Source: a virus. From it: DNA of 64,000 bases. A program made the translations under genes and the position numbers. Positions 6,045 through 49,523 of the stretch are shown here, in pieces. The first letter of the stretch is position 1. Each line of letters begins with the position of its first letter. Under the pieces are notes generated by a model. That model did no database searches, was not told where the DNA came from, and was given only the letters and a program-made list of their open reading frames with translations. Where the stretch lies: positions 12,168-76,167 of the IMG/VR virus record IMGVR_UViG_3300046804_003617; one strand, given 5' to 3'.

Positions 6045-6049
6045 ATTCT

Positions 6050-6057
6050 TATAAATA
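6050..6057 (-). promoter_or_regulatory. Putative phage late promoter (TATTTATA on coding strand)
   Basis: One of about 14 copies lying just upstream of start codons. Confidence 0.6.
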
Positions 6058-6086
6058 TATACAAAACTCGCATTATAGACGAGTTT

Positions 6087-6971
6087 TTATAGAGCAAGAT
6101 TCAATTGTCTAAGCTTTTTATAATATGGTATAGACCAAGCAAATTCCGCAGGAAAATTTTCTATATTGGCTTCAAAGTCGTAGGTATATTCCTTGATTGC
6201 GGAAAGATAATGGTCTTTGATTGTTATCTTATCCGATTTAAGAGTGTTATATAGAGTTATATTGGCGGCGTGCTTTACATATATACCAAAAAATTTCTTG
6301 GTTATTGTTTCTCCGTCTTGGAATAAATCCTTATATTCTTTTTTTCTTGCCAATATTCGTGGCATAGTATGTCTTAGCAAAAACATATCCGCATCTTCCT
6401 CGTTTCGTCGAAGCATTTCTTTGATGATTTTTGCTCGGAATCCGTAGCAATTCGAAAGCAGCCCTCTTGCAACTCTTTCGCTATACATATCCAACTTTGC
6501 TGGCAACTGCGGATGCCTGTAACAATAGCAGGTTCTGGTAGAATCCACACCTATAGAAACCGCATCCCAAAGAATAAGACTGTTTTTTGGAAAATCCAAT
6601 TCTGATATTTCTGGAGACAACCAATCGTCATCATCCAATGGTATGATAATATCGTCATCGCGCAATGCCATCAATTCCTCTCTGGCAGAATCTTGGATAT
6701 GAACATATGGCAGCTTCCACGTGCTTTTTATTTTTTTGTCCACGTGGTTATAAATGATACGATCAGATATGTTTTTGATGCAGCTTAGTTGTATTTGATG
6801 AACCTTTTTCCGGTAATCGTGTATAGAAATCTTGAATAATTTATCGAATTCTTCCGCACATTGTCTGGCATCCACTGCCATACTTCCGTGACCAACTTCC
6901 GGCATCATACTTTCTTTGAATAGTGCTCGTATAAAAAATACAATTTTGTGGTTCTTTTTATTTTCGGTCAT
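6087..6971 (-). CDS. Putative GT-A/GT2-like glycosyltransferase
   Basis: IIIPLDDDDWL motif. The likely start is MTENKK at 6971 (ATGA overlap with the upstream stop) rather than 7109. Confidence 0.55.
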   Translation of the reverse strand: MTENKKNHKIVFFIRALFKESMMPEVGHGSMAVDARQCAEEFDKLFKISIHDYRKKVHQIQLSCIKNISDRIIYNHVDKKIKSTWKLPYVHIQDSAREELMALRDDDIIIPLDDDDWLSPEISELDFPKNSLILWDAVSIGVDSTRTCYCYRHPQLPAKLDMYSERVARGLLSNCYGFRAKIIKEMLRRNEEDADMFLLRHTMPRILARKKEYKDLFQDGETITKKFFGIYVKHAANITLYNTLKSDKITIKDHYLSAIKEYTYDFEANIENFPAEFAWSIPYYKKLRQLNLAL

Positions 6972-8140
6972 GGCAACAGATATTTGTAATACTTTTTGAT
7001 ATGACCAAGCTTTCCTCCAGTATTCGCTATACTTCCCATATAATGAACGGTTACAGAATCCGGATTGGTAACTGTGCGAGTTTCTTCGGTATTTACCGGT
7101 ATAAAACAAAATTGGTCTTTAAATTTAAATATATTAGATATCATTAATATGTTAAAGTACGTATTCATGAAACTTTGTTCGAAAAAGTATTGACCCGGCC
7201 ACTTCTGGGCAAATTCGTAAATGTTTTTGAAATGTTTGATCATGGTCGAAGTATTCATAAAGAAAAACTGACCAGCATTGAACGCAAATATACATTTGAA
7301 ATCTAGCACTGCTATATGAACATCCGAGTATTGTTGTATCGTGTGATATACGGACCTGTGCAATGTCTTGTCAATTCTGTGAGATGCGCTGTAAAATACG
7401 TTTGGTCTGACTCTTTCTTCAAAAATTTTGGAAAGATCTCCCACGATCAATATGTCCAAATCCAAAAACAATATTTTCTTATAATCGTTTATTTTCTCAA
7501 ACTCATAGATTTTTAGCTTCTGCATAGATGCTTCAACTGTATCCACAATCTTGTGCATTATGAGATAATGAACGTTGAAATGCTTGATGAGGGGCATTTT
7601 TTCTATTAATTTTTTGGTACGCTTGTCTGTTATGAACAACAGATCAAAGTTCTGATAGGGCTGTTTCTTGAGACCCTTAAGCAAGTATTTCAATAATTCT
7701 ATATACCCAGAATCTCCGAAAGCTGAAAAATATATCAAATTCTTTTCGCCTTTAATGTTGTCATCTATCTTTATATCTACGCCTCGTTTTATCCACTTCT
7801 TCAGCATTTTTAGCGATTTTTCATCGCCAAGTTTATCTGGATTTTTGATGAATTCTAGACCTCCATTAATAACGGAAAATTCTTTGTCTTTTTTTCTAAG
7901 CGCTATTCTTCGTCTCCAAGTTTTGTCTCTTGAAAATGGACAAAATTCAACAGAATCGCAAGATTCATATACATCATCGGGTATGATAATAAATTCCTGT
8001 GCATTGTGATTAAGCACCATCATTTCCTGCTTTGATATTTCACGTGTATAAATTGCCTTGTTATTTTTAACGGCAACAACCAATACGTGCAATATTTCGT
8101 TGAGATTTCCTATATGCGTATAGGGTATTTTTATATTCAT
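6968..8140 (-). CDS. GT8-like glycosyltransferase
   Basis: KLKIY...KKILFLDLDILI, FNAG, FEQSFMN and VHY motifs. Confidence 0.75.
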   Translation of the reverse strand: MNIKIPYTHIGNLNEILHVLVVAVKNNKAIYTREISKQEMMVLNHNAQEFIIIPDDVYESCDSVEFCPFSRDKTWRRRIALRKKDKEFSVINGGLEFIKNPDKLGDEKSLKMLKKWIKRGVDIKIDDNIKGEKNLIYFSAFGDSGYIELLKYLLKGLKKQPYQNFDLLFITDKRTKKLIEKMPLIKHFNVHYLIMHKIVDTVEASMQKLKIYEFEKINDYKKILFLDLDILIVGDLSKIFEERVRPNVFYSASHRIDKTLHRSVYHTIQQYSDVHIAVLDFKCIFAFNAGQFFFMNTSTMIKHFKNIYEFAQKWPGQYFFEQSFMNTYFNILMISNIFKFKDQFCFIPVNTEETRTVTNPDSVTVHYMGSIANTGGKLGHIKKYYKYLLP

Positions 8141-8151
8141 ATAACCTTTTT

Positions 8152-8180
8152 ATTAGATACTAAATCGATTGTTTTGTCAA
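8152..8180 (-). promoter_or_regulatory. Sigma70-like promoter TTGACA-17-TCTAAT
   Basis: Perfect -35 and 17-bp spacer upstream of the GT8-like gene. Confidence 0.55.
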
Positions 8181-8189
8181 ATTAAAACT

Positions 8190-8444
8190 TTAAGCGTAGT
8201 TGATATTCACAAATATATACCTCAAGTCGGTATTTCCACCACCATTCCAGCTACCAGCAATGAGCTTTGTGTCAAAACTTATTTCCTGCGCTGGAGAATA
8301 TTGAATTTTTTCATATAGCTGCGCCAAGTCTGTACCATTGCTCTTAAAGCCAGTGTTTGCCGTAGCAGAGGACGTTCTCGGCTTAAATATACTATCCAAA
8401 TCTGTGTCTACTCCACTTATTCTAACTTTGAATCCGGATGCCAT
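8190..8444 (-). CDS. Small tail-fibre-associated protein, paralog 2
   Basis: 84 aa; shares NGTDLAQLYEKIQYSPAQEI and DLRYIFVNINYA with its neighbour; lies downstream of the tail fibre. Confidence 0.7.
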   Translation of the reverse strand: MASGFKVRISGVDTDLDSIFKPRTSSATANTGFKSNGTDLAQLYEKIQYSPAQEISFDTKLIAGSWNGGGNTDLRYIFVNINYA

Positions 8445-8475
8445 ATATGTTTAAATATTAAACCATTATTAGTTT

Positions 8476-8712
8476 TTAAGCGTAGTTGATATTTACGAAT
8501 ATATATCTGAGATCCACGCCTCCGGTTTTGAACCCCGTATTGAAATTTATCTCTTGTGCTGGAGAATATTGAATTTTTTCATATAACTGTGCCAAGTCTG
8601 TGCCATTGCTTTTTATTCCGACATTTGCTCGCGCCGCACTGGTTCTTGCTTTAAACACGCTGTCCAAGTCGGTGGGCGTTCCGTTTATTTTTACTGTATA
8701 ATTGGAAGCCAT
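8476..8712 (-). CDS. Small tail-fibre-associated protein, paralog 1
   Basis: 78 aa; starts 3 nt after the tail fibre stop; has internal xDL..[IL][FY] repeats. Confidence 0.7.
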   Translation of the reverse strand: MASNYTVKINGTPTDLDSVFKARTSAARANVGIKSNGTDLAQLYEKIQYSPAQEINFNTGFKTGGVDLRYIFVNINYA

Positions 8713-8715
8713 ACA

Positions 8716-11700
8716 TTATTTATTCTTCAGCTCCAATAATTGCGATTTGACTTCTTTTAATTCTGCTGATAGTTCTTTTACTGCGGCAATAAGTGCGGCG
8801 GTTAATTTACCATATTCCAATCCAGAAATATTACCATCTTTGTCTTTGTTGACGATTGTTGGTATCAGTTCATTTACTTCTTCTGCGATCATGCCTATGT
8901 CGTTGGTTACATCCTTATTTTTCCAATCGAATGTGACTGGACGCAACTTTTGTATCATATCCATACCATTTGTCAAATCTTTAATATTTGTCTTGAATCT
9001 TCTGGATGATGTGCTGTTAAATGATACTGCGGTAACTGCTCCGCTTGAATCAAGAACAATGTTTCCTCCACCAACTCCCACTGTTCCGCTGAATGATCCT
9101 CCACCGGTACAATCAAATCCTCCGGTTCCTACTTCCGCTCTTCCGCAAACAATAGTGGAGGCTCCTCCACCAAACTGGAATTTGCTACTTGCATATTTGA
9201 ATTCTGCACCAGCAAGTGTAAGTACTCCTAGATCATTTAGTTTTGTAGAATACCCAGATCCAAGTTGAATAGAGGCGGCGGCACCTCCTCCGGTCAATAG
9301 AAGAGGATACGAACCGGTCAATCCAATCGTTGCTTGGTTTGTTGATGCATCGATACTCAACCCATTTCCTGTTATCTTTGCTGCGGAATTTGTTGCGCTC
9401 GATAATCCCCCCGCTCCTATGTTCCATCCGGCAATAGTTCCTGAATTTGTCGCGGTCAACGACGTTGCCGTGACAGTTCCCGATATTGTTGCTGATGTGG
9501 CGGTCAATGCGCCTCCAGAAGTGACTTGGAATGTTCCGCTGTTTATATTCAATGTTCCACCAGTTATGGAAACATCCGCACAGCTTATGTTTCCGTTACT
9601 ATTCAACGTCGTAGAACCGGCAGTCAATGTTGTGGACCCAATGGTCCATCCACCAATACTGCCGCCGCTATTGGCGTTTAAGGTAGAAACCGTCAGAGTA
9701 CCATTACTGTTTAGTGTGGTAGAGCCGCCGGTCAAGCTGCTTGCGCCTATGGTCCATCCACCAATACTACCACCACTGCTTGCGTTTAATGTTGAAACTG
9801 TAAGCGTTCCGTTGCTATTTAGAGTCGTGGAACCGCCCGTCAACGTACTTGCACCAATAGTCCACCCACCGATACTACCAGCACCGGCGGTAACGGTGCC
9901 ACTTACAGTAGCAGATGACAAATTCGCCGAAGTCGCAGTCAATATTCCAGACGGACTTACACTGAAATTCGTAGAACCTGTGATAGAACCATTACTATTT
10001 AATGTCAATGCGCCTCCAGTTATGGTACTACTTCCAATAGTCCATCCACCAATAGTACCGCTTGTTGAAGTTATCTTTCCGGAAATATCCGCCGCACTCG
10101 CGGTTACACGGCCATTTGAATCAACTCTAAACGCCCCGCTTCCTATATTTAATGTACCACCAGTGATAGTACCTCCGCTTATGGTTGGAGAATTTATTGT
10201 GAGTGCAGCGTTTATTGTTCCGGCATTGATCTTGTTTGCATCCAAATTGCGAATATATGCCTGATCCATATACACTCCACTAATGTCAACGAGGAATGGA
10301 GTAATAACACTTCCTTCATCTCCCAGAGTATTCACAACCTTAAACGTATCCGCTTGTATTATAAATGAAGAGGACGCGACGCTCGATGCTATTTTATATC
10401 CAGCAACTCTGTTTCCGGCTGTGACTGCCAGTACATACTGGGCTTTCAAACTTACTACAGAACCGGATACCGCCGCTGATGTGGTCTGTGTCGTTGATAT
10501 ACTTGCGCTTAAATTTGATCCACTTATATTAAGTGCGCTTGTCAAGTTGTTGATGCTAGTTGCGGCTGACGAACTGTTGTTCGTGACTGTGTTGCTGAGA
10601 CTATTAATGTTTGATTGTAAAGTAGAGCCGCTCGTATTAAGAGCGCTCGTCAAGTTGTTGATGCTGGTCGCGGCTGAAGCACTATTTGTGGTAAGAGTAC
10701 TGTTTGTCGTGGTAATGCTCGAAGCCAGAGACGAACTGTTTGTGGTGATCGAACTACCCAGGCTGTCCATGCGGGTCGCCGCAGACGAACTGTTCGTGGT
10801 GACCGTGGTGCTCAGGCTATTGATGTTCCCCTGCAAGGTCGAACCGCTTGTGTTGAGGGCGCTCGTCAAGTTGTTGATGCTGGTCGCGGCTGAAGCACTA
10901 TTTGTTGTGATAGTACTGTTTGTCGTGGTGATACTTGATGCCAACGACGAGCTATTTGTCGTGATTGAACTACTTAAACTGTCCATTCTAGTAGCCGCAG
11001 ACGAACTGTTATTTGTGACAGTGTTATTAACAGTGTTTATATTGGACTGCAACGTTGACCCGCTGGTATTAAGAGCACTGGTCAAGTTATTGATGCTGGT
11101 CGCCGCTGAGGCACTATTCGTGGTAACGGTGCTATTCGTTGTTGTTATGCTGGAGGCTAGAGAAGAACTGTTTGTTGTAATTGAACTACTCAGACTATCC
11201 ATACGAGTAGCAGCCGAAGAACTGTTGTTTGTGACAGTTGTGCTCAGACTATTGATGTTCGATTGTAATGTCGAACCACTTGTATTCAACGCGCTTGTTA
11301 AATTATTTATGCTGGTCGCAGCAGATGCGCTGTTTGTCGTGAGAGTGCTATTAGTTGTTGTGATACTGGATGCCAACGAAGAACTGTTTGTGGTGATCGA
11401 ACTGCTCAGAGTATCCATCCGAGTAGCTGCGCTTGAACTGTTATTCGTGACCGTGGTACTTAGACTATTAATATTCGATTGCAATGTCGAACCACTGGTA
11501 TTCAACGCACTCGTCAGATTATTGATACTGGTTGCTGCGGACGAACTGTTCGTCGTCACGGTACTATTTGTCGTTGTGATGCTGGATGCGAGTGAAGCGC
11601 TATTTGTAGTAATAGAACTATTCAAGCTGTCCATTCTTGTGGCTGCTGAAGAGCTATTATTCGTGACGGTTGTACTTAAGCTGTTAATATTTGACTGAAG

Positions 11701-14700
11701 AGTCGAACCACTGGTATTCAGCGCACTTGTTAGATTATTCAAGCTCGTAGCAGCAGATGCGCTATTTGTGGTAACAGTACTATTCGTCGTTGTTATGCTG
11801 CTTGCCAAAGAAGCGCTGTTGTTTGTAATTGAACTGCTTAAGCTATCTATACGAGTTGCCGCTGAGGCGCTATTGTTTGTAACTGTAGTACTGAGAGTAT
11901 TGATGTTGGACTGCAACGTAGAGCCGCTTGTGTTCAATGCGCTCGTAAGATTGGTTATACTGGTTGCGGCAGAAGCACTGTTGGTTGTAACCGTGCTGTT
12001 TGTTGTCGTGATACTAGAAGCCAGCGAAGCACTGTTGGTTGTGATGGAACTTCCGAGGCTATCCATACGTGTGGCGGCGGATGAACTGTTTGTCGTGACC
12101 GTTGTGCTTAACGTATTAATATTCGACTGAAGAGTTGAACCACTAGTATTTAGAGCACTGGTTAGGTTATTGATGCTTGTTGCTGCCGATGAGCTATTTG
12201 TTGTAACCGTGCTGTTTGTTGTCGTGATGCTGGACGCAAGAGAAGCACTATTGTTGGTAATAGAGCTGTTCAACGTGTCCATCCTTGTAGCCGCAGACGA
12301 ACTGTTATTTGTGACGGTCGTGCTAAGAGTATTAATATTTGACTGTAAACTTGAACCACTTGTATTCAACGCACTGGTTAGGTTATTAATACTTGTTGCT
12401 GCCGATGAACTATTGGTCGTTATTGTGCTGTTTGTGGTGGTAATACTACTTGCCAAGGATGCACTGTTCGTTGTAATCGAACTGCTGAGACTATCCATTC
12501 TGGTCGCAGCAGATGAACTGTTATTAGTTACAGTGTTGCTCAGTGAAGTGATGTTTGATTGCAACGTAGACCCGCTGGTATTCAAAGCACTTGTGAGATT
12601 GTTTATACTTGTTGCAGCAGATGAACTGTTTGTTGTAACCGTACTGTTTGTTGTTGTGATGCTTGACGCCAGCGATGAACTATTGGTTGTGATTGCGCTG
12701 TTCAAACTGTCCATACGAGTTGCGGCGGAAGAACTGTTTGATGTGACCGTGTTGCTTAACGATGTAATATTTGACTGCAACGTTGAACCGCTTGTGTTTA
12801 AAGCGCTTGTGAGATTGTTGATACTTGTGGCAGCGGACGAACTGTTTGTCGTTACCGTGTTCTGAACCGATGTGATATTCGACTGTAATGTGGAGCCACT
12901 GGTATTAAGAGCACTCGTTAGATTATTTATTGATGTTGCCGCTGATGAGCTATTCGTTGTAACTGTATTGTTTACTGTTGTGATACTTGAAGCCAGCGAC
13001 GAACTGTTATTGGTGATTGAACTATTTAAAGTGTCCATCCGCGTTGCTGCCGATGAACTGTTGCTGGTTACCGTATTGCTTAGTGAGGTGATATTTGATT
13101 GTAATGTGGATCCACTTGTATTCAACGCACTTGTCAGATTATTGATGCTGGTCGCGGCGGATGAGCTATTTGTGGTAACCGTGCTATTTGTGCTGGTAAT
13201 GCTGCTTGCCAACGACGCGCTATTGTTAGTAATAGAACTTGATAGAGTATCAATCTTTGTTGCCGCAGATGAACTGTTTGTAGTTACAGTGTTACTTAAA
13301 GATGTTATGTTTGACTGTAGTGTAGATCCACTTTGATTCAGTGCGCTGGTCAAGTTGTTTATACTTGTGGCTGCGGATGAACTGTTTGTCGTGATGGTGC
13401 TATTTGTGCTGGTAATACTCGATGCCAAAGAAGAACTGTTGTTCGTGATGGAACTATTAAGCGTATCCATACGTGTTGCAGCAGATGAACTGTTTGTGGT
13501 AACAGTATTGCTCAACGATGTAATATTGCTTTGTAGAGTAGATCCACTGGTATTTAGTGCAGCCGTTAAATTATTAATGCTTGTTGCCGCCGAAGCACTG
13601 TTTGTTGTTATCGTGCTCTGGGTTGATGTGATCGAAGCATTTAGCGAGGCGGAGGCGTTGGTATAAGAAGAACTCAGAGTCGTCAACTGTAGTGCGAGGG
13701 ACGAGCTTGCGGTTGTCAACGAACTTCTCACATCGGTGATAGATGCCGCCAATGATGCGCTGTCCAATGAACTGGATTGACCAGCCGATATAGAATCAAT
13801 TCTTCCGGCAAATGACGAGGATGTATTGGTAAATGTGGTATTCGCCGTTGTTATAGATGCCGCCAATGAAGCACTGTTGTTTGTTATAGAACTGGACAGC
13901 GTGTCGATCTTTGTTGCGGCAGACGAACTGTTGTTGGTGACAGTTGTGCTCAGAGTATTGATGTTGGACTGCAACGTAGATCCACTGGTGTTCAGCGCCG
14001 ATGTCAAATTATTGATACTCACCGCAGCAGAAGAACTATTCGTTGTTATGGTTGACTGCGTGCTTGTGATAGAAGAGGCGAGAGAAGCACTTGCGTTAGT
14101 AATGTTGGTGGATACAGTGTCAACTCTACCGGCCAGAGATGAACTGGCTGTGGTCAAGGTATTGTTTGTTGTTGTAATGCTTGCCGCAAGAGAAGAACTG
14201 TTGGTTGTTATAGAACTGCTGAGTCCATCCATTCTCGTTGCTGCGGATGAGCTATTGGTTGTCACCGTTCCTTGCAACGTCGTCAGTGAACTTGCGAGAG
14301 AAGAACTGTTTGTTGTAACATTTGAAGAAATGGTATCAACTTTGGAAGCGAGTGATGAACTTGCATTTGTCAATGTTGTATTTACTGACGAAATTGATGA
14401 AGCAAGTGAAGCGCTGTTACTGGTAACTGTACTTGACAGGTTGTTTACTGCCGTGGCAGCAGATGCGCTGTTTGTAGTAACGGTGGATTGTGTGCTGGTG
14501 ATGGAAGCGGCAAGAGAAGAACTTGCATCAGTAAATCCGGATGATATACTATCAACCTTAGCAGCAAGAGAAGAACTTGTATTGGTTAAAGTAGTGCTTG
14601 TGCTAGTTATTGATGCGGCAAGTGACGAGCTATTAGTATTAATGCTGCTTTGCAATCCATCCATTCTCAATGCTGCGGATGAACTATTTGTAGTAACTGT

Positions 14701-16389
14701 TGTGCTTAACGATCCTATATTTGATGAAAGCGAAGAAGATGCGTCTAAGTAAGACGAACTTAATGTAGTCAGCTTTGCCGCTAAAGATGAGCTTGTGGTT
14801 GCCAGCGTGTTGTTTACTTGGGTTATGGAAGCAGCGAGAGAAGCACTGTCCAGTGATCCTGTTCCACCAGCCATTGCAGCAATAACATCTATTCTATTGG
14901 CAAATGACGAGGATGTATTGGTAAATGTCGTGTTTGTGGTGGTGATACTTGCAGCCAATGATGCGCTGTTGTTTGTGATCGCACTTGACAGTGTATCTAT
15001 TTTTTGTGCGGCGCTGGAACTGTTTGTTGTTATTGTTCCCTGAACAGAAGTTATTGTGGACGCAAGAGATGAGCTATTAGTTGTGACCGTACTGGACAGA
15101 GTATCCATTCTTGTAGCCGCCGACGAACTGTTTGTTGTCACAGTGCTACTTAACGTATTGATATTTGACTGTAAACTTGAACCACTTGTATTTAAAGCAC
15201 TTGTCAAATTGTTTATACTTACTGCTGCCGAAGAACTGTTGGTGGTGATTGTTCCGTTGGTGGTGGTGATGCTGGAAGCCAATGATGCACTGTTTGTGGT
15301 TACTGTGCTGCTAACCGTATCTATTTTGGCAGCAAACGAGGAAGAGTCGGTGGTCACTGTTGCATATACACTTTGTATGGATGATGCCAGTGAAGCGGAA
15401 TCTTGGGTGACTCTGTTGCTCACGCTGCTTAAGCTTGAAGAAAATGATGCCGAATTTAAAGTTATTGCCGAAGCAAGAGAAGCGGAAGCATCGGTAACAG
15501 AAGAACGTATTGAAGTAGAAACAGATGCGGCGGACGCAGAGTTTGCGTTTATGCTTGCATACGCAGCGGAAATATTGCTATTGATGGACTGCGATACAAT
15601 ATACAAAGAAGAAGAAACCGTCTGTATGCTGGCGGATATTGCAGCTATGCTGCTGGAAGTTGATGATACAAGAGAAGAGGAAACTGAATTTATTGTGCTA
15701 TACAAAGATGCGGTGGCAGAATTCAAGTTTTCAAATACCTGAGAAACGGATGCCGAGTTCTGAGTCACCGCCGATGCCAAAGATGAAGATGCGGTGTTTA
15801 TTGCCGAATAAACTGCTACCAAACTTTGGGTTATTGATTGATCTATGGAAGCGGACGTAGATGCTAAAATTTGCGGGACTATATCTTGAATACTCTGGGA
15901 TACTATACTTGAAATTGAAGAAGAGATTACAGTGTTTACATCTCCCAGACTTTGTGATATTTGATTATTAAGGGATTGTGATACTGCATTTAATTGTGAA
16001 ATACTAACCGAAGATGTTGGTAGTCCAATAACGGCCCCAGCACCATATTGTATACTTAATGTGCCGTCATCTTGGTCGGTGAGTCTTATATTTCCAACGT
16101 AAATACTACCAGAACTTACATACAAGTCTTTCCATCTGTTTGAGGGACTGCCCAGATCATATATAGCATCTGTTATAGGAACCAAACTTTGGGATATTTG
16201 AGACCCATCAAATGTTCCTCCCGTGGTATATGCCAAACTGTTCCAAGCAGTAGCTCCATTGCCTATCTTCAATTTTCCAGTATCGGTCTCGAATCCAGCT
16301 TCACCACTCGAAAGTGTCGGGTTTACAAACGACCAGTTTGCTGCCGTGTCTCTTCTTAGCTGTATTTTTTGGATTGCGATGGTTGACAT
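8716..16389 (-). CDS. Giant tail fibre with Mtd_N/hyaluronidase-type N-terminus, 18-residue coiled-coil repeats, DUF1983-like domain, GGWTIG repeats and C-terminal S74 intramolecular chaperone
   Basis: IQLRRDTAANW..NPTLSSGEAGFETDTGKLKIGNG; YDLGSPSNRWKDLY; VAGYKI..FIIQADTFKV..PFLVD..VYMDQAYIRN; TSSRRFKTNI..LRPVTFDWK..GMIAEEV..LIAAVKEL. Confidence 0.9.
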   Translation of the reverse strand: MSTIAIQKIQLRRDTAANWSFVNPTLSSGEAGFETDTGKLKIGNGATAWNSLAYTTGGTFDGSQISQSLVPITDAIYDLGSPSNRWKDLYVSSGSIYVGNIRLTDQDDGTLSIQYGAGAVIGLPTSSVSISQLNAVSQSLNNQISQSLGDVNTVISSSISSIVSQSIQDIVPQILASTSASIDQSITQSLVAVYSAINTASSSLASAVTQNSASVSQVFENLNSATASLYSTINSVSSSLVSSTSSSIAAISASIQTVSSSLYIVSQSINSNISAAYASINANSASAASVSTSIRSSVTDASASLASAITLNSASFSSSLSSVSNRVTQDSASLASSIQSVYATVTTDSSSFAAKIDTVSSTVTTNSASLASSITTTNGTITTNSSSAAVSINNLTSALNTSGSSLQSNINTLSSTVTTNSSSAATRMDTLSSTVTTNSSSLASTITSVQGTITTNSSSAAQKIDTLSSAITNNSASLAASITTTNTTFTNTSSSFANRIDVIAAMAGGTGSLDSASLAASITQVNNTLATTSSSLAAKLTTLSSSYLDASSSLSSNIGSLSTTVTTNSSSAALRMDGLQSSINTNSSSLAASITSTSTTLTNTSSSLAAKVDSISSGFTDASSSLAASITSTQSTVTTNSASAATAVNNLSSTVTSNSASLASSISSVNTTLTNASSSLASKVDTISSNVTTNSSSLASSLTTLQGTVTTNSSSAATRMDGLSSSITTNSSSLAASITTTNNTLTTASSSLAGRVDTVSTNITNASASLASSITSTQSTITTNSSSAAVSINNLTSALNTSGSTLQSNINTLSTTVTNNSSSAATKIDTLSSSITNNSASLAASITTANTTFTNTSSSFAGRIDSISAGQSSSLDSASLAASITDVRSSLTTASSSLALQLTTLSSSYTNASASLNASITSTQSTITTNSASAATSINNLTAALNTSGSTLQSNITSLSNTVTTNSSSAATRMDTLNSSITNNSSSLASSITSTNSTITTNSSSAATSINNLTSALNQSGSTLQSNITSLSNTVTTNSSSAATKIDTLSSSITNNSASLASSITSTNSTVTTNSSSAATSINNLTSALNTSGSTLQSNITSLSNTVTSNSSSAATRMDTLNSSITNNSSSLASSITTVNNTVTTNSSSAATSINNLTSALNTSGSTLQSNITSVQNTVTTNSSSAATSINNLTSALNTSGSTLQSNITSLSNTVTSNSSSAATRMDSLNSAITTNSSSLASSITTTNSTVTTNSSSAATSINNLTSALNTSGSTLQSNITSLSNTVTNNSSSAATRMDSLSSSITTNSASLASSITTTNSTITTNSSSAATSINNLTSALNTSGSSLQSNINTLSTTVTNNSSSAATRMDTLNSSITNNSASLASSITTTNSTVTTNSSSAATSINNLTSALNTSGSTLQSNINTLSTTVTTNSSSAATRMDSLGSSITTNSASLASSITTTNSTVTTNSASAATSITNLTSALNTSGSTLQSNINTLSTTVTNNSASAATRIDSLSSSITNNSASLASSITTTNSTVTTNSASAATSLNNLTSALNTSGSTLQSNINSLSTTVTNNSSSAATRMDSLNSSITTNSASLASSITTTNSTVTTNSSSAATSINNLTSALNTSGSTLQSNINSLSTTVTNNSSSAATRMDTLSSSITTNSSSLASSITTTNSTLTTNSASAATSINNLTSALNTSGSTLQSNINSLSTTVTNNSSSAATRMDSLSSSITTNSSSLASSITTTNSTVTTNSASAATSINNLTSALNTSGSTLQSNINTVNNTVTNNSSSAATRMDSLSSSITTNSSSLASSITTTNSTITTNSASAATSINNLTSALNTSGSTLQGNINSLSTTVTTNSSSAATRMDSLGSSITTNSSSLASSITTTNSTLTTNSASAATSINNLTSALNTSGSTLQSNINSLSNTVTNNSSSAATSINNLTSALNISGSNLSASISTTQTTSAAVSGSVVSLKAQYVLAVTAGNRVAGYKIASSVASSSFIIQADTFKVVNTLGDEGSVITPFLVDISGVYMDQAYIRNLDANKINAGTINAALTINSPTISGGTITGGTLNIGSGAFRVDSNGRVTASAADISGKITSTSGTIGGWTIGSSTITGGALTLNSNGSITGSTNFSVSPSGILTATSANLSSATVSGTVTAGAGSIGGWTIGASTLTGGSTTLNSNGTLTVSTLNASSGGSIGGWTIGASSLTGGSTTLNSNGTLTVSTLNANSGGSIGGWTIGSTTLTAGSTTLNSNGNISCADVSITGGTLNINSGTFQVTSGGALTATSATISGTVTATSLTATNSGTIAGWNIGAGGLSSATNSAAKITGNGLSIDASTNQATIGLTGSYPLLLTGGGAAASIQLGSGYSTKLNDLGVLTLAGAEFKYASSKFQFGGGASTIVCGRAEVGTGGFDCTGGGSFSGTVGVGGGNIVLDSSGAVTAVSFNSTSSRRFKTNIKDLTNGMDMIQKLRPVTFDWKNKDVTNDIGMIAEEVNELIPTIVNKDKDGNISGLEYGKLTAALIAAVKELSAELKEVKSQLLELKNK
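10450..15800 (-). repeat. Coding tandem repeat: 54-nt (18-aa) units organised as a 216-nt (72-aa) super-repeat
   Basis: TTNSSSAATSINNLTSAL / NTSGSTLQSNINSLSTTV / TNNSSSAATRMDSLSSSI / TTNSSSLASSITTTNSTV repeated; boundaries approximate. Confidence 0.85.
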
Positions 16390-16419: not shown

Positions 16420-18507
16420 TTAGTAGTTTGCGCCAATTGGATCTATAAATATTCTAGATTTTAATGGAAAAAGCTGCTTATTATATGTAAAAGTATATGA
16501 ATTGGTGCCATATGCCAGCTTCTGGGAACTGTCGTACAATTCTACCTCTATTTCATAATGTTCGTTGGGAATATGCGCAAAAATGGGGATTTTCACCAAA
16601 AAGCTGTCTATGGAATAATCCAAATCCTGATATGGAGTTATTGATACAGATGATATATACCAAAATCCACTCATCGGAACAAACATTATGGTTCCATATT
16701 TTTCATCTTGGTTAAAAAATGTATTCTCGTATAATTCATTTGCCCCATAGTTGTATGCGCTGTCTATATAGCCTATCATGGTTTTGATACCATTGCTTAT
16801 TCCGTATATATACAATTTTGCATCTGCTGAGTTCCCGGCCGCCGCCTTTACTCTCATACTAAACTTATATAAAGTATTTTGGCGATACTTAATGGGATTA
16901 CTGTCATGAATAGTTCCAGAAAGAACATTTTCTTGTGAAGTAGCATACGAAGATATACTTGGTATGTTTGTCAGTCCTATATATGAAGCGGTGGGATATA
17001 TTGCACTGTTTAAAAATGCCTGTGTGTTGGCATACCAGTAGGATTTTGACCCAAATGAGTATGAAACATATTGAGCATTCTGAGAAGCCGCGTCTGTATT
17101 GTCTTTGTATATCACATAATCCGTTTCATTATAGTTTCCGGTGTGACCAATATATGCGCCGTCTATGAGAACAGAATTATCGTGAGAAAAAGTGCAGCTT
17201 CCATTCACAAACCAATGTGATGACATATGCTGCTGAGAATAAAAGTAACTTGGATTGTTATATACTCCACTGTCAAATTTTGTGGTGATTATGGCTTCGT
17301 CCGGACGAATATAACCCTGAGTAAGCAATGTTCTGTCGGCTGGAGTGTTCAGGCTGCGAGCATATATCTTATAAGATTCCAAATTACCACATAATGTTCT
17401 TATATTGTTGCATTCCACTCCCACAACTGAACGATATTTTGTTGACGCGGATGTTGTGGCTCTTGGTAAATTTTGAGGTATTTCCCTATAGAATATTTCA
17501 AATTGACCATCTGATATGCTTAATATGTAGAAATTTTTCTTGTGAAAAACGACTTGCTTGTCCGGATCGTCCTCTATTCTTACGTCCTTAAGTCTGACAA
17601 GATTGTTTTTTGAATATGGAGAATCCTCGTTTGATCTGCTAATAAGCTCATATACAGTGGAAAATGGTATATCCAATAGCAATGATGTTTCATTTACAAC
17701 CTTGCTTATTTTTGCAACAAAATCCGTGTTAAGAGTTCCCTGAAAAACTTCCTGATAATCGTTATAGCGAAATTGCGATACGGTTGGGTTTTTCAAACGA
17801 ACATATTCGCCTTCCATCGAAGAACTAAATCTGGTTCCCGATTTAAGATGCAATTGATAAATTGCTGTATCAAACTGATAATCATAATCTCCATTTGTGT
17901 TATTTTTTGGACTTACCGCCGTAGCCGAGAAGCTTCCGGAAGCCAATCTGTATGAACCTGTTGGATATACCGGAGACTGATATATCTCCGCACGAGTTTT
18001 GATATATGGAGTATCAAAAAATCTTATTTCAGAATCTGTTGGTTTAGTTGTATCTATGAGAACATTTCTCGTCCATATTACTTCCACACTTTGCAATTTG
18101 TTGCTTGCTGGAGGTTCTGTCGTAAGAGGTAAGCGTTCATCGTCCTTTATCTTGTATCCAGTGCCCTTATAAAAGGCAACGCTGCCACTATAATCCTCCA
18201 CATTCAACCCGATTCCACGAACCTGTAATTTTCCAACGCCGTTGGTGGTGTCAATTGGAACAGTAACGTGATATAAATGACCAGTATTCGTTTCTTCGGC
18301 AAATCTGGCGTTATCTGGCATCACCTTATCACACGCCAATTCATTGTTCAACACATCATAAACTTTGACAAATATTGGCTGACCGGGTACCAAATATGGT
18401 GACGGGTTTATCGTGAACGAGTTTTTTCCGGCATAAAACCTATCACTATAGCCGGTGAGGAAAAAGTAAGTATTGGAGTTATAATCCGAATCGAATAGTT
18501 TAGCCAT
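16420..18507 (-). CDS. Probable virion/tail structural protein
   Basis: 695 aa, rich in Y/S/T/N; late-type motif upstream; immediately upstream of the tail fibre. Confidence 0.6.
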   Translation of the reverse strand: MAKLFDSDYNSNTYFFLTGYSDRFYAGKNSFTINPSPYLVPGQPIFVKVYDVLNNELACDKVMPDNARFAEETNTGHLYHVTVPIDTTNGVGKLQVRGIGLNVEDYSGSVAFYKGTGYKIKDDERLPLTTEPPASNKLQSVEVIWTRNVLIDTTKPTDSEIRFFDTPYIKTRAEIYQSPVYPTGSYRLASGSFSATAVSPKNNTNGDYDYQFDTAIYQLHLKSGTRFSSSMEGEYVRLKNPTVSQFRYNDYQEVFQGTLNTDFVAKISKVVNETSLLLDIPFSTVYELISRSNEDSPYSKNNLVRLKDVRIEDDPDKQVVFHKKNFYILSISDGQFEIFYREIPQNLPRATTSASTKYRSVVGVECNNIRTLCGNLESYKIYARSLNTPADRTLLTQGYIRPDEAIITTKFDSGVYNNPSYFYSQQHMSSHWFVNGSCTFSHDNSVLIDGAYIGHTGNYNETDYVIYKDNTDAASQNAQYVSYSFGSKSYWYANTQAFLNSAIYPTASYIGLTNIPSISSYATSQENVLSGTIHDSNPIKYRQNTLYKFSMRVKAAAGNSADAKLYIYGISNGIKTMIGYIDSAYNYGANELYENTFFNQDEKYGTIMFVPMSGFWYISSVSITPYQDLDYSIDSFLVKIPIFAHIPNEHYEIEVELYDSSQKLAYGTNSYTFTYNKQLFPLKSRIFIDPIGANY

Positions 18508-47605: not shown

Positions 47606-49462
47606 TTAGTTTACTACCTCTGCATCTACCGTTTCGCCGTCCTTAGCTGGCTTTGGTCCCTTGTCTTTATATACAAGTTCGCCAAGCTTGCTAAGTTCGG
47701 AAATAGCATCTTTCATCTTTGACACATCATCGCTTTCAAGGGATTTCTTAGCATTTGATATACCTTCGTTGACCTTGGTCACGATGCTGTCTTCATACTT
47801 GTTGTCTTTTAGCTGCTTCTCCCAGCCATAGATCATATTATCAAGACTGTTCTTGGTTTCAAACTTTTCCTTTGTAACCTTGTCTTTGTCGGCATTGGCT
47901 TCAGCATCGGCTTTCATCTTTTCAATTTCATCCTTGGATAGACCAGAGGAATTCTGAATTGTGATGTTCTGCACCTTGCCTGTGCCAAGATCTTTGGCGG
48001 ACACGTGCAGAATGCCGTTGGCATCAATATCAAATGTGACTTCGATCTGAGGAGTGCCACGAGGGGCAGGCGGAATGCCGTCCAGCTTGAAGTTGCCAAG
48101 ACGCTTGTTGTCGTTGGACATAGGACGCTCTCCCTGCAACACAACAATGTCAACGGACGGCTGATTATCGCTGTATGTCGAGAATACTTGTGATTTCTTG
48201 GCGGGGATGGTCGTGTTTCTTGGGATCATTGGTGTCGCCACGTTACCAGCAGTTTCAATTGCAAGTGTGAGTGGAGTAACGTCGAGCAATAATACATTAT
48301 TGACTTCACCCTTCAACACGCCACCTTGCACGGCGGCTCCAACTGCCACAACTTCGTCTGGATTTACACCTTGATTTGGAACCTTGCCACCAAACTTCTT
48401 GGCATAATCAACAACCTTTGGCATTCTGGTCATACCACCAACAAGAACAAGCTCGTTCAGTTCTGAATTGGACATACCGGCGTCTTTAAGACAGTTCTTG
48501 TATGGAGCATCCATACGTTCAAATAACTTTTCACAGATCTGCTCCATCTTTGAACGAGAAATGTTCAAGTTCATATGTTTTGGACCAGATGCGTCGGCTG
48601 TTATGAACGGAAGGTTGACATCGTATGATGTAGCTGATGACAATGCTATCTTTGTCTTTTCTGCTTCTTCACGCAAACGCTGAATAGCCATATTGTCCTT
48701 GGACAAATCAACGCCGCTGTCCTTCTTGAACTCGGCAATCATATAATCCATGATAGCCTTGTCCCAATCATCGCCACCAAGGTGTGTATCACCGTTGGTT
48801 GCCTTCACCTCAAATACACCGTCCCCGATTTCGAGGACGGTAACGTCAAACGTACCACCGCCAAGGTCGAATACGGCAATCTTTTCGTCCTTCTTTTTGT
48901 CCAGACCATAGGCTAAGGATGCTGCGGTGGGTTCGTTGATGATACGCAGAACTTCCAAACCAGCAATAGTGCCAGCATCCTTGGTAGCTTGACGTTGAGA
49001 ATCATTGAAATATGCGGGAACGGTGATGACAGCCTTCTTTACAGGCTGACCAAGATATGCTTCGGCATCCGCCTTGATCTTACCAAGCACAAACGCGCCA
49101 ATCTGCTGTGGAGAGTATTTCTTTGCTTCGCCATTCTCTGTAACTTCAATCCAAGCATCTCCATTCGGACCTTCCACAACCTTGTATGGAAGGTTTTTGA
49201 TTTCTTCCTGAACTTCGCTGAACTTTCTGCCAATAAGTCTCTTGGCAGAGAAAATAGTATTTTTAGGATTAGTAACAGCCTGTCTTTTAGCAGCCTGACC
49301 AACCAATCTTTCTCCAGTCTTTGTGAAAGCAACAACCGATGGAGTCGTGCGAGCACCTTCGGAGTTGGTGATTACTGTGGCTTCACCTGCTTGCCAGACC
49401 GCCACGCACGAATTCGTCGTGCCAAGGTCAATACCAATAACAATGTCATTTGATTTACTCAT
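47606..49462 (-). CDS. dnaK: Hsp70 chaperone DnaK
   Basis: [46 protein letters not shown]; likely start MSKSND at 49462. Confidence 0.97.
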
Positions 49463-49523
49463 AAATTTGGTTGTTGAGCCATATACATTGGCATATGGCC
49501 CAACATTTGTCAACTTTTATTTT

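What the first reader, a model, noticed from the sequence alone, without database searches (positions are those of the whole stretch)
10450..15800. About 1800-aa nearly uncharged coiled coil with strict 18-residue period
Seen: roughly 100 units of 18 aa grouped in 72-aa super-repeats, made almost only of S/T/N/A/L/I/V. Each unit carries [NT]S[SAG]S in the same register, except for two short loops (..GGTGSLDSAS, ..GQSSSLDSAS). Known: an 18-residue (7+11) period gives 3.6 residues per turn, a nearly unsupercoiled bundle, at about 0.15 nm per residue. Inference: a fibre shaft of roughly 250-270 nm with the motif aligned in a stripe. With so few charges, solubility may depend on glycosylation.
Basis: partly seen in the sequence, partly recalled or inferred. 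Interest (0 to 1): 0.7.

Follow-up and report, generated by a model that had tools for sequence, protein, structure and literature searches.

The report
Giant uncharged coiled-coil phage tail fibre
An uncultured jumbo phage encodes a 2,557-residue tail fibre whose roughly 1,850-residue shaft is almost certainly a nearly straight, almost charge-free helical rod about 270 nm long, an extreme version of a shaft type found in other phage fibres.

Summary
One minus-strand ORF (window 8716-16389, 2,557 aa) holds a rod (aa 126-1975) that is 90% S/T/N/A/L/I/V and 3.6% charged. Ninety 18-residue units stay in one register from aa 331 to 1956, broken only by a +4 and a +2 glycine loop.

The hydrophobic period is 3.60. 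Hydrophobic pairs are depleted at i+2 and enriched at i+4, i+7 and i+11. AlphaFold2 folds aa 985-1200 as one helix (pLDDT 92). A second model (aa 1-700) is also helical but has low confidence.

Each unit reads as one hendecad plus one heptad with Asn at position d.

The rod lies between domains that are trimeric in solved relatives: Mtd_N at the N-terminus; then Phage_Tail_Tip (gpJ-type), GGWTIG repeats and a Peptidase_S74 chaperone.

Its closest relative is a siphovirus-type central tail fibre with a ~230-aa rod of the same units. [quoted passage not shown]

Repeats are 89% identical in protein but only 37% at third codon positions, so every position is under selection.

The phage encodes an Aah/TibC-type serine O-heptosyltransferase, but fibre-less relatives encode it too.

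Verdict: a new variant of a known kind. No trimer model or experiment was possible. The scan had noted this same stretch before, but no look-alike on other DNA.

The parts
8716..16389 (-). Whole fibre gene, 2,557 aa (P0001)
   Evidence: Only long ORF here; the plus-strand ORFs over it are shadows of the repeat.
16015..16389 (-). N-terminal anchor, aa 1-125; Mtd_N at aa 9-47 (16249-16365)
   Evidence: PF18454 64.6 bits (cut-off 26.3). Weak PF12219 endosialidase match at aa 43-96. PDB 6x3m hyaluronidase N-terminus, E 8e-4. Conserved in 5 orthologues.
15400..16014 (-). Degenerate start of the rod, aa 126-330
   Evidence: Hydrophobic period 3.63-3.75. Spacing i+2 0.27x, i+4 1.9x, i+11 2.0x of expectation. 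Helix in the low-confidence AF2 model.
10522..15399 (-). Strict 18-residue register, aa 331-1956, 90 units
   Evidence: Profile scan; period 3.60; AF2 single helix for aa 985-1200, pLDDT 91.9.
14842..14883 (-). Loop 1, aa ~503-516 (AMAGGTGSLDSAS), +4 residues
   Evidence: Register break 40 instead of 36. Helix break at aa 509-514 in the low-confidence AF2 model. Same loop in orthologues L003 and L005.
13756..13797 (-). Loop 2, aa ~865-878 (SISAGQSSSLDSAS), +2 residues
   Evidence: Register break 38 instead of 36. Followed by the same SLDSASLAASIT block as loop 1.
10522..13761 (-). Most regular part, aa 877-1956: 72-aa super-repeats (four unit types)
   Evidence: TRF 216/432-nt period. Protein identity 89%, DNA 73%, third codon position 37%.
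10054..10488 (-). Phage_Tail_Tip (gpJ-type tail tip fibre) domain, aa 1968-2112, directly after the rod
   Evidence: PF09327 38.9 bits (cut-off 22). PDB 9ze4_N E 0.004, lambda gpJ 8jvm/8xcj E 0.004-0.03. 47% identity to P0012 over 271 aa.
9490..10053 (-). GGWTIG beta-type repeats, aa 2113-2300 (36-aa period)
   Evidence: GGWTIG at aa 2114, 2174, 2210, 2246. TRF 108-nt period 9596-9884. phrog_496 tail fiber.
9010..9489 (-). Distal region, aa 2301-2460, presumed receptor-binding part
   Evidence: Position only. No family match.
8719..9009 (-). Peptidase_S74 intramolecular chaperone (aa 2461-2513) and C-terminal helix
   Evidence: PF13884 51.3 bits (cut-off 22). PDB 6f45_A (S16 long tail fibre tip) E 1.9e-8.
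8190..8712 (-). Two tandem paralogous mini-proteins (78 and 84 aa) directly downstream
   Evidence: ORFs 8476-8712 and 8190-8444. No family match for the 84-aa one. Role unknown.
6968..8140 (-). GT8-like glycosyltransferase, first gene after the fibre and mini-proteins
   Evidence: PF01501 25.4 bits (cut-off 24.3). Not found in the fibre-less relatives' loci.

Best explanation
The gene encodes a homotrimeric tail fibre of an uncultured jumbo myovirus-like phage.

Domain order:
- An N-terminal Mtd_N-type domain docks the fibre on the virion.
- Residues ~126-1975 form a parallel three-stranded alpha-helical coiled coil.
- Then come a gpJ-type Phage_Tail_Tip beta-prism, a GGWTIG beta-helical segment and a distal binding region.
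- A C-terminal Peptidase_S74 intramolecular chaperone trimerises the tip and then cuts itself off.

Rod geometry: the repeat is 18 residues over 5 turns, that is one hendecad (core positions 4, 8, 11 = L/A, I/M, L/T) plus one heptad (15 = V/I/L at a, 18 = Asn at d). At 3.60 residues per turn the bundle is almost unsupercoiled. I estimate a left-handed pitch of ~65 nm, against ~15 nm for heptads. The rod would be ~270 nm long.

Two glycine loops probably act as hinges or docking sites. They divide the rod into segments of about 56, 52 and 163 nm.

The ~60-70 Asn-at-d layers would point into the core and hold anions or water, as in trimeric autotransporter stalks. The surface is a continuous Ser/Thr/Asn coat, possibly O-glycosylated.

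Function: a very long, semi-rigid reach-out fibre that widens the capture radius and presents the distal tip to the host surface.

Shown: sequence anatomy, helical periodicity, helix prediction for one fragment, domain identities, homology of rod plus tip to central-fibre modules, and purifying selection.

Inferred: trimeric state, anion layers, length, hinges and function.
For: - Periodicity 3.60 throughout aa 230-1956.
- Hydrophobic spacing i+2 0.15x, i+4 2.0x, i+7 2.7x, i+11 3.0x of expectation. The same holds in the non-repetitive aa 126-330, in contrast to the C-terminal beta region.
- AF2: aa 985-1200 is one helix, pLDDT 91.9. aa 130-699 is helical with breaks at the loop, but at pLDDT 42.
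- Only 1 Pro and 1.8% Gly in 1,705 aa.
- Pfam coiled-coil families hit the rod: Apolipoprotein 160 bits, SF-assemblin, DUF1664.
- Most of the 99 sequence relatives have 18/36/72-residue repeats with a 3.6 period and a normal 15-30% charge, typical of soluble helical rods.
- Flanking domains Mtd_N, Phage_Tail_Tip and Peptidase_S74 all score above their cut-offs. Their solved relatives are trimers (PDB hits; established knowledge).
- The F7 pyocin central fibre has a solved trimeric coiled coil directly N-terminal to the same type of beta-prism (bioRxiv 10.64898/2026.01.28.702463).
- 18/5 is an accepted coiled-coil periodicity (PMC4786415). N@d layers coordinate chloride in trimeric coiled coils (PMC13580157).
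Against: - No multimer model or experiment exists, so knobs-into-holes packing and oligomer state are untested.
- Three of the five AF2 models of the first fragment scored 67, 66 and 41. The second fragment scored only 42.
- Only ~18% of rod residues are L/I/V/M, so per-residue stability would be low.
- A coiled-coil surface with almost no charge is unusual and unexplained.
- Hydropathy power at 18/8 = 2.25 is as strong as at 3.6, although the spacing test explains it as a harmonic.
- A helix prediction from a shallow alignment is also what He et al. obtained for fibres that can switch to a beta-prism. It therefore does not show that the helix is the only state.
Confidence: 0.62

Rival explanations
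1. Metastable coiled coil that switches fold. The rod is assembled as a helical trimer. On receptor binding it converts, starting from the Phage_Tail_Tip beta-prism seed, into a compact beta-prism. This shortens the fibre several-fold and reels the virion to the cell, as shown on a 163-residue scale for the F7 pyocin central fibre.
For: - Rod plus tip is homologous to the distal module of gpJ-type central fibres. P0012 has Phage-tail_3, Phage_Tail_Tip and S74, with 47% identity over 271 aa spanning rod end and tip. PDB 9ze4_N aligns over coil plus prism, E 0.004.
- The seed domain directly follows the rod.
- By my reading of the unit consensus, the published SxSxxMxxLxS pattern fits positions 3-13 of units B-D, and the reverse pattern fits positions 6-16.
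- Near-invariance of small surface residues despite saturated synonymous sites is what a two-fold constraint would produce.
- He et al. predict the switch in 21 of 24 phage central fibres.
Against: - With ~60% S/T/A the pattern is expected by composition alone.
- The protein is not a central fibre (no hub domains), and the phage appears contractile-tailed (baseplate wedge gene), so it needs no such motor.
- All units are direct repeats, with no alternation of strand direction.
- A 1,850-residue switch is ten times larger than anything observed.
Confidence: 0.15
2. Natively beta-structured fibre. The 18-residue unit is one turn of a triple beta-helix, beta-prism or solenoid with Asn/Ser/Thr ladders. 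That would make it a natural strand-loop-strand substrate for the phage's Aah/TibC-type heptosyltransferase.
For: - Hydropathy power at period 2.25 is as high as at 3.6.
- Ser/Thr/Asn-rich composition and TxT-like strings recall beta-helices.
- TIGR04414-type enzymes act on beta-helical autotransporter passengers.
- AF monomer predictions cannot see an intertwined beta-trimer.
Against: - i+2 hydrophobic pairs are 0.15x of expectation, and there are no alternating hydrophobic runs.
- Almost no Gly or Pro is available for turns, apart from one Gly per 72 aa.
- No hexapeptide pattern.
- AF2 gives a helix at pLDDT 92.
- Charged homologues look like classic helical rods.
Confidence: 0.1
3. Disordered, mucin-like glycosylated tether. 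The Ser/Thr-rich region is an extended, heavily O-glycosylated linker rather than a folded rod.
For: - 60% Ser+Thr+Asn.
- Several glycosyltransferase genes lie nearby, including a protein serine heptosyltransferase.
- Polar-core coiled coils are routinely predicted as disordered (PMC13580157).
- The scan has reported poly-Ser phage fibres beside sugar genes in other genomes.
Against: - A tether needs no exact 3.60 hydrophobic period held over 1,800 residues.
- It also needs no 89% amino-acid conservation of every position at saturated synonymous sites.
- AF2 predicts helix, not coil.
- Both ends are trimerising domains.
Confidence: 0.05

Closest known systems
Distal module of gpJ-type central tail fibres: coiled coil, then Phage_Tail_Tip beta-prism (F7 pyocin CFP, He et al. 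2026 bioRxiv 10.64898/2026.01.28.702463; lambda gpJ PDB 8jvm/8xcj; metagenomic P0012)
   Same: A coiled coil directly followed by PF09327. P0012 has the same S/T/N 18-residue units, the same junction (47% identity over 271 aa) and the same S74 end.
   Different: There are no hub or FN3 domains; an Mtd_N anchor takes their place. The rod is ~1,850 aa, against 163 aa in F7 and ~230 aa in P0012. The part of the PDB 9ze4_N coil that aligned reads as heptads in my reading, whereas this rod keeps a strict 18/5 period. The phage appears to have a contractile tail.
Proximal coiled-coil shaft of lambda-type side tail fibres (Ur-lambda gpStf residues 102-393; PMC12617516)
   Same: A trimeric helical shaft with a hinge in a phage side fibre. 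Earlier scan notes describe it as Ala/Ser-rich and low in charge.
   Different: Per those scan notes it has a heptad period and is ~290 aa (~54 nm) long; the paper itself does not mention heptads. No sequence match was found here. This rod is six times longer, 18/5-periodic and Ser/Thr/Asn-rich.
Stalks of trimeric autotransporter adhesins with Asn-at-d layers and mixed heptad/hendecad/pentadecad periods (Hartmann et al. 2009; PMC13580157, PMC4786415)
   Same: Long surface fibres built as trimeric coiled coils, with non-heptad periods and polar Asn core layers that bind anions.
   Different: No homology. TAA stalks are charged on the surface and interrupted by neck and head domains. Here one period is held for 90 units.
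Tail fibres and spikes matured by a C-terminal Peptidase_S74 intramolecular chaperone (endosialidase type; S16 gp37 tip, PDB 6f45)
   Same: PF13884 at the C-terminus, at 51 bits, with a Ser...Lys motif (SSRRFK) at its start.
   Different: The shafts of the characterised members are mostly beta-structured or short coiled coils.
AIDA-I/TibA autotransporters with their Aah/TibC heptosyltransferases (PMC4358343)
   Same: A repeat protein rich in Ser, encoded in the same genome as a TIGR04414 enzyme with the four iron-finger cysteines.
   Different: The known substrates are 19-residue beta-helix repeats, not helices. Here the enzyme is fused to a GT4 domain, lies 10.7 kb away and also occurs in fibre-less relatives.

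Membership tests
Alpha-helical coiled coil, non-heptad 18/5 | Hydrophobic periodicity within the accessible range (about 3.5-3.8 residues per turn) | tested here: met
   3.60 in all segments from aa 230 to 1956, and 3.75 in aa 126-230. i+4/i+7/i+11 enriched, i+2 depleted.
Alpha-helical coiled coil, non-heptad 18/5 | Continuous helical secondary structure | tested here: met
   AF2 gives one helix for aa 985-1200, pLDDT 91.9. aa 130-699 is helical but at pLDDT 42, so that part is inconclusive.
Alpha-helical coiled coil, non-heptad 18/5 | Knobs-into-holes packing in a defined oligomer (here a parallel trimer) | not testable with these tools
   Only single-chain prediction was offered. The trimer is inferred from the flanking trimeric domains.
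Trimeric coiled coil with N@d anion layers | Asn at the heptad d position, recurring in register | tested here: met
   Position 18 is Asn in 42 of 60 units, three residues after V/I/L at position 15. Ion binding itself is untestable here.
Peptidase_S74 intramolecular-chaperone tail fibres | PF13884 domain at the C-terminus above the gathering score | tested here: met
   51.3 bits against 22; PDB 6f45_A E 1.9e-8.
Peptidase_S74 intramolecular-chaperone tail fibres | Autocatalytic release of the chaperone at a Ser-Lys dyad | not testable with these tools
   The SSRRFK motif is present at aa ~2462-2467. Cleavage needs an experiment.
gpJ-type central tail fibre protein (tip attachment protein J) | Phage_Tail_Tip (PF09327) domain after a coiled coil | tested here: met
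   38.9 bits against 22, aa 1968-2112.
gpJ-type central tail fibre protein (tip attachment protein J) | N-terminal hub domains (Phage-tail_3 / HDII-IV, FN3) | tested here: not met
   No such Pfam or PHROG match; the N-terminus is Mtd_N. So it shares the distal module but is not a central fibre protein.
Fold-switching coiled coil (F7 pyocin type) | SxSxxMxxLxS pattern per strand, and a coil-to-prism alternative state | tested here: inconclusive
   By my reading, the pattern fits unit positions 3-13 and, reversed, 6-16. It is expected from 60% small residues. No alternative-state modelling was possible.
Beta-solenoid or left-handed beta-helix with 18-residue turns | Alternating (i, i+2) inward hydrophobics, or a hexapeptide [LIV]-G-x4 pattern with regular turn residues | tested here: not met
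   i+2 pairs are 0.15x of expectation. Core positions 4, 8, 11, 15 do not fit a period of 6. 1 Pro and 1.8% Gly.
Substrate of an Aah/TibC-type heptosyltransferase | Enzyme of TIGR04414 encoded with the substrate | tested here: inconclusive
   The enzyme is present at 358 bits against 200, with the cysteine tetrad. It is also present in fibre-less relatives. Modification is untested.

The most novel reading that the evidence does not exclude
The 1,850-residue rod is a spring-loaded fibre. It is assembled as a ~270 nm coiled coil and, once the tip binds, zips from the Phage_Tail_Tip seed into a beta-prism several-fold shorter, dragging the jumbo virion to the cell surface. The requirement to fit two folds, possibly together with serine glycosylation, would explain why every surface position is a conserved small polar residue.
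Probability: 0.15. Interest if true: 0.9.

Novelty: new variant of a known kind. Interest (0 to 1): 0.55.

Why it matters
If the rod is what it appears to be, it would be among the longest and most regular non-heptad coiled coils found in nature. It has ninety 18/5 units, about 18% hydrophobic residues, an Asn layer in most units and almost no charge.

It would be a natural test case for how polar a coiled-coil core and surface can be. It would also test whether sequences predicted to be disordered are in fact rods.

For phage biology it shows that the short coiled coil plus beta-prism module of siphovirus central fibres has been expanded tenfold and moved onto a side-fibre anchor in a jumbo phage.

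It also gives a concrete candidate pair for virion glycosylation: a Ser-rich fibre and a phage-borne Aah/TibC-type protein heptosyltransferase.

Finally, it is an extreme case on which to test the newly reported coil-to-prism fold switch.

Tried and rejected
- Megablast of 19.6 kb of flanking DNA against 50,697 phage records gave no match.
- tblastn of the whole protein against phages matched only the two ends, because the low-complexity filter hides the rod.
- The word-index protein search gave 6 weak hits, none covering the rod well.
- PDB sequence search on the rod gave only compositional matches: a LIM-domain repeat protein and a coronavirus S2 helix at E 0.003. I did not use these.
- Hit P0075 of the representatives search is a false friend (Asp/Cys calcium-type 18-mers).
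- Literature searches for '18-residue repeat', '36-residue', 'octadecad', and hendecad with tail fiber found no description of an 18/5 phage fibre rod. The phiCbK hit was irrelevant.
- The second AF2 run (aa 1-700 with 5 orthologues) was low confidence. I use it only as a weak indication.
- The left-handed beta-helix idea (18 = 3 x 6) was rejected on core spacing.
- The equally strong 2.25-residue hydropathy peak is a harmonic of three hydrophobic positions per unit. The i+2 depletion resolves it.
- A strict fibre-glycosyltransferase linkage was rejected. GT4-FkbM and the heptosyltransferase persist in relatives without the fibre.
- A link to the 'moraphage' lineage (PMC12619734) was considered. 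It is not supported by the DnaK affinities, which point to Verrucomicrobiota rather than Bacteroidota.
- The ESM Atlas gave only a sub-threshold lead to PF09327. Pfam then confirmed it.
Full report
**Observation**

The region lies inside a single minus-strand ORF, window 8716-16389, of 2,557 aa. The plus-strand ORFs listed over it (for example 10283-11698) are shadows of the repeat. The local reversal of GC skew at 10-16 kb reflects its codon composition.

Residues 126-1830 are 29% Ser, 20% Thr, 12% Asn, 11% Ala, 8% Leu, 6.5% Ile and 4% Val. D+E+K+R is 3.6%, and there is one proline.

Self-identity peaks at lags 72, 144, 36, 108 and 18. TRF reports a 216-nt period over 10568-13554.

A profile built from the regular part finds units in one register from aa 331 to 1956, which is 90 units. 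There are only two breaks. One is a +4 insertion at aa ~503-516 (AMAGGTGSLDSAS). The other is a +2 insertion at aa ~865-878 (SISAGQSSSLDSAS).

**Architecture**

Pfam places these domains, all above their gathering scores:
- Mtd_N at aa 9-47.
- Phage_Tail_Tip (PF09327, the gpJ-type tail tip fibre domain) at aa 1968-2112, directly after the rod.
- Peptidase_S74 (intramolecular chaperone of endosialidase) at aa 2461-2513.

Between the last two lie 36-residue GGWTIG repeats that match tail-fibre PHROGs.

PDB sequence matches agree:
- A streptococcal phage hyaluronidase N-terminus (6x3m).
- Lambda gpJ (8jvm, 8xcj) and a 'tip attachment protein J central straight fiber' chain (9ze4_N).
- The S16 long-tail-fibre tip (6f45).

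The window belongs to a 76-kb IMG/VR record that CheckV rates 36% complete. It carries a baseplate wedge gene, SbcCD, primase and DnaK. A 297-kb relative is rated complete. This is therefore a jumbo, probably contractile-tailed phage.

**Anatomy of the repeat**

Hydropathy Fourier peaks fall at harmonics of 18, including 18/5 = 3.60 and 18/8 = 2.25, with similar power. The 3.60 value holds in every segment from aa 230 to 1956. The degenerate start (aa 126-230) gives 3.75.

In the unit (consensus SSSLASSITTTNSTVTTN and three variants), the hydrophobic positions are:
- position 4: L or A, alternating
- position 8: I or M
- position 11: L or T
- position 15: V, I or L

Position 18 is Asn in about 70% of units. 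The spacing is 4-3-4-3-4. I read this as one hendecad (a, e, h) plus one heptad with Asn at d.

Hartmann et al. describe 18/5 as the result of one stutter spread over two heptads. They put the undistorted helix at 3.63 residues per turn (PMC4786415). From these figures I estimate a left-handed pitch near 65 nm, so the bundle is nearly straight (inference).

Asn at d forms anion-binding layers in trimeric coiled coils (PMC13580157). Their presence here is inferred.

**Helix or strand?**

The 2.25 peak could suggest beta structure, so I counted spacings between L/I/V/M/F residues.

| Spacing | Rod, observed/expected |
|---|---|
| i+2 | 0.15 |
| i+3 | 1.2 |
| i+4 | 2.0 |
| i+7 | 2.7 |
| i+11 | 3.0 |

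The non-repetitive aa 126-330 show the same pattern (0.27, 1.0, 1.9, 1.8, 2.0). The C-terminal beta region does not. This is a helical stripe, and the 2.25 peak is a harmonic.

AlphaFold2 on aa 985-1200, with an alignment of the protein's own repeats, gives one uninterrupted helix with mean pLDDT 91.9. The five models scored 92, 91, 67, 66 and 41.

A second run on aa 1-700 with five orthologues gave helix from aa 130 to 699, with breaks at 281-285, 509-514 (loop 1) and 620-623. Its mean pLDDT was only 42, so it is weak evidence.

The trimer is inferred from the trimeric nature of the flanking domain families.

**Relatives**

An exhaustive HMMER search of 1.84 billion representatives with aa 330-760 found 99 proteins at E <= 1e-3, the best at 1e-29. 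Most have identity lags of 18, 36 or 72 and a hydrophobic period of 3.55-3.62. Their charge is an ordinary 15-30%, for example the unit VESGYKSADSALSGTVSSLSETVASNDSALSKRIDT.

Of 29 relatives scanned, 8 carry Phage_Tail_Tip, 4 carry Phage-tail_3, 4 carry Peptidase_S74 and 2 carry the T5 pb4 spike domain.

The 18/36-residue rod is thus a recurrent, apparently undescribed-as-such module of phage fibres. The query is its low-charge and long extreme: 1,791 rod residues flagged, against at most 981 in any other hit.

The closest relative, P0012, is a gpJ-like central fibre (Phage-tail_3, Phage_Tail_Tip, S74). It has ~230 aa of the same S/T/N units and is 47% identical across the rod-tip junction.

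**Selection**

Ten consecutive 72-aa super-repeats are 89% identical in protein but 73% in DNA. Identity is 89%, 93% and 37% at codon positions 1, 2 and 3.

The serine codon class is fixed per position. Position 1 is AGY in 44 of 45 cases and position 2 is TCN in 44 of 44.

Synonymous sites are therefore near saturation while almost every residue is held, including the surface Ser/Thr/Asn. Ordinary coiled coils do not constrain their surface in this way. This needs an explanation: glycosylation sites, lateral packing, or compatibility with a second fold.

**Phage relatives**

Fourteen IMG/VR loci share the upstream 695-aa gene. Five of them (L003, L005, L006, L011, L014) have the orthologous fibre. 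It has the same N-terminal domain, 36/72-residue rods and the same GTGSLDSASLAASIT loop. In all five the contig ends inside the rod; L006 is still open at 2,425 aa.

Five others go straight on to the glycosyltransferase genes. The complete 297-kb genome has no match to rod plus tip. The fibre block is accessory.

**The fold-switch precedent**

He et al. (bioRxiv 10.64898/2026.01.28.702463) show that the 163-residue trimeric coiled coil of the F7 pyocin central fibre converts to a beta-prism on cell binding. The conversion is seeded by the beta-prism strands that follow the coil. They predict the same switch for 21 of 24 siphophage central fibres, and report an SxSxxMxxLxS pattern in which small residues are exposed in the coil and buried in the prism.

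The present rod belongs to the same module type and sits directly on such a seed. By my reading of the unit consensus, it satisfies the pattern in both orientations. With 60% small residues that is expected by chance, and I could not model alternative states. I keep this as the most novel reading that is not excluded.

**Glycosylation**

Directly downstream lie two mini-protein paralogues, a GT8-like gene, two unassigned ORFs and a GT4-FkbM fusion.

About 10.7 kb beyond the fibre, outside the window, a 664-aa protein fuses a GT4 domain to a full-length TIGR04414 Aah/TibC-type O-heptosyltransferase (358 bits, cut-off 200). It retains the four iron-finger cysteines.

TibC heptosylates serine, not threonine, in autotransporter passengers (PMC4358343). 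A phage-borne protein serine glycosyltransferase makes virion glycosylation likely, and this fibre an obvious candidate.

Two points weaken the link. The enzyme is conserved at 61-63% identity in relatives whose loci lack the fibre. Its known substrates are beta-helical, which would fit the GGWTIG segment better than the helix.

**Verdict**

Rivals are the fold-switch variant (0.15), a natively beta fibre (0.1) and a disordered tether (0.05).

The object is a new variant of a known kind: a phage tail fibre with a trimeric helical shaft and an S74-matured tip. Four things make it remarkable: its length, its strict 18/5 period, its lack of charge and its position-by-position conservation.

Noticed in passing
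G000:C1 about 9470-11464 (locus L097:1303-3297, minus strand), outside the window: A 664-aa fusion of a GT4 glycosyltransferase with a full-length Aah/TibC-type autotransporter O-heptosyltransferase (TIGR04414, 358 bits), with the four iron-finger cysteines kept. A protein serine glycosyltransferase in a phage. It is conserved in related phages.
   Followed up: partly
window 8190-8444 and 8476-8712 (minus strand): Two tandem paralogous mini-proteins (84 and 78 aa) start 3 nt after the fibre's stop. They share N- and C-terminal blocks and differ in one loop. The rod has exactly two Gly loops, each followed by SLDSASLAASIT. A docking relation is only an idea.
   Followed up: no
window 47606-49513 (minus strand); loci L017-L020: The phage DnaK is 72-74% identical to DnaK on contigs of freshwater 'Opitutae' MAGs and 63-66% identical to other Verrucomicrobiota. 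This is a host lead, unless those contigs are mis-binned phage.
   Followed up: partly
window 3150-16389 compared with L007, L008, L010, L012, L013, L015: The block from the fibre to the 964-aa ORF (about 13 kb) is absent between the conserved 695-aa gene and the GT4-FkbM gene in several related phages. A complete 297-kb relative has no match to rod plus tip. The fibre is an accessory cassette.
   Followed up: partly
window 16420-18507 (minus strand); L003-L006, L011, L014, L016: The conserved 695-aa protein just upstream has no family match. In several relatives it ends in a run of about 15 glycines. It may be a structural partner of the fibre.
   Followed up: no
L006:12251-12700: The orthologous fibre in L006 carries a ~70-residue Gly/Ser/Thr/Ala tract (GTSGTSGGSGAA repeats) between Mtd_N and the rest of the N-terminal domain. 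The tract is absent from the window's protein.
   Followed up: no
window 10000-16000: GC skew turns positive (+0.1 to +0.23) only over the rod, and long plus-strand ORFs (up to 471 aa) open there. Both are by-products of the Ser/Thr/Asn codon repeat on the minus strand.
   Followed up: yes
window 52563-54164 (minus strand): A Nol-type carbamoyltransferase (phrog_1601, E 5e-119) lies in a second cluster of modification genes, possibly for sugar decoration.
   Followed up: no
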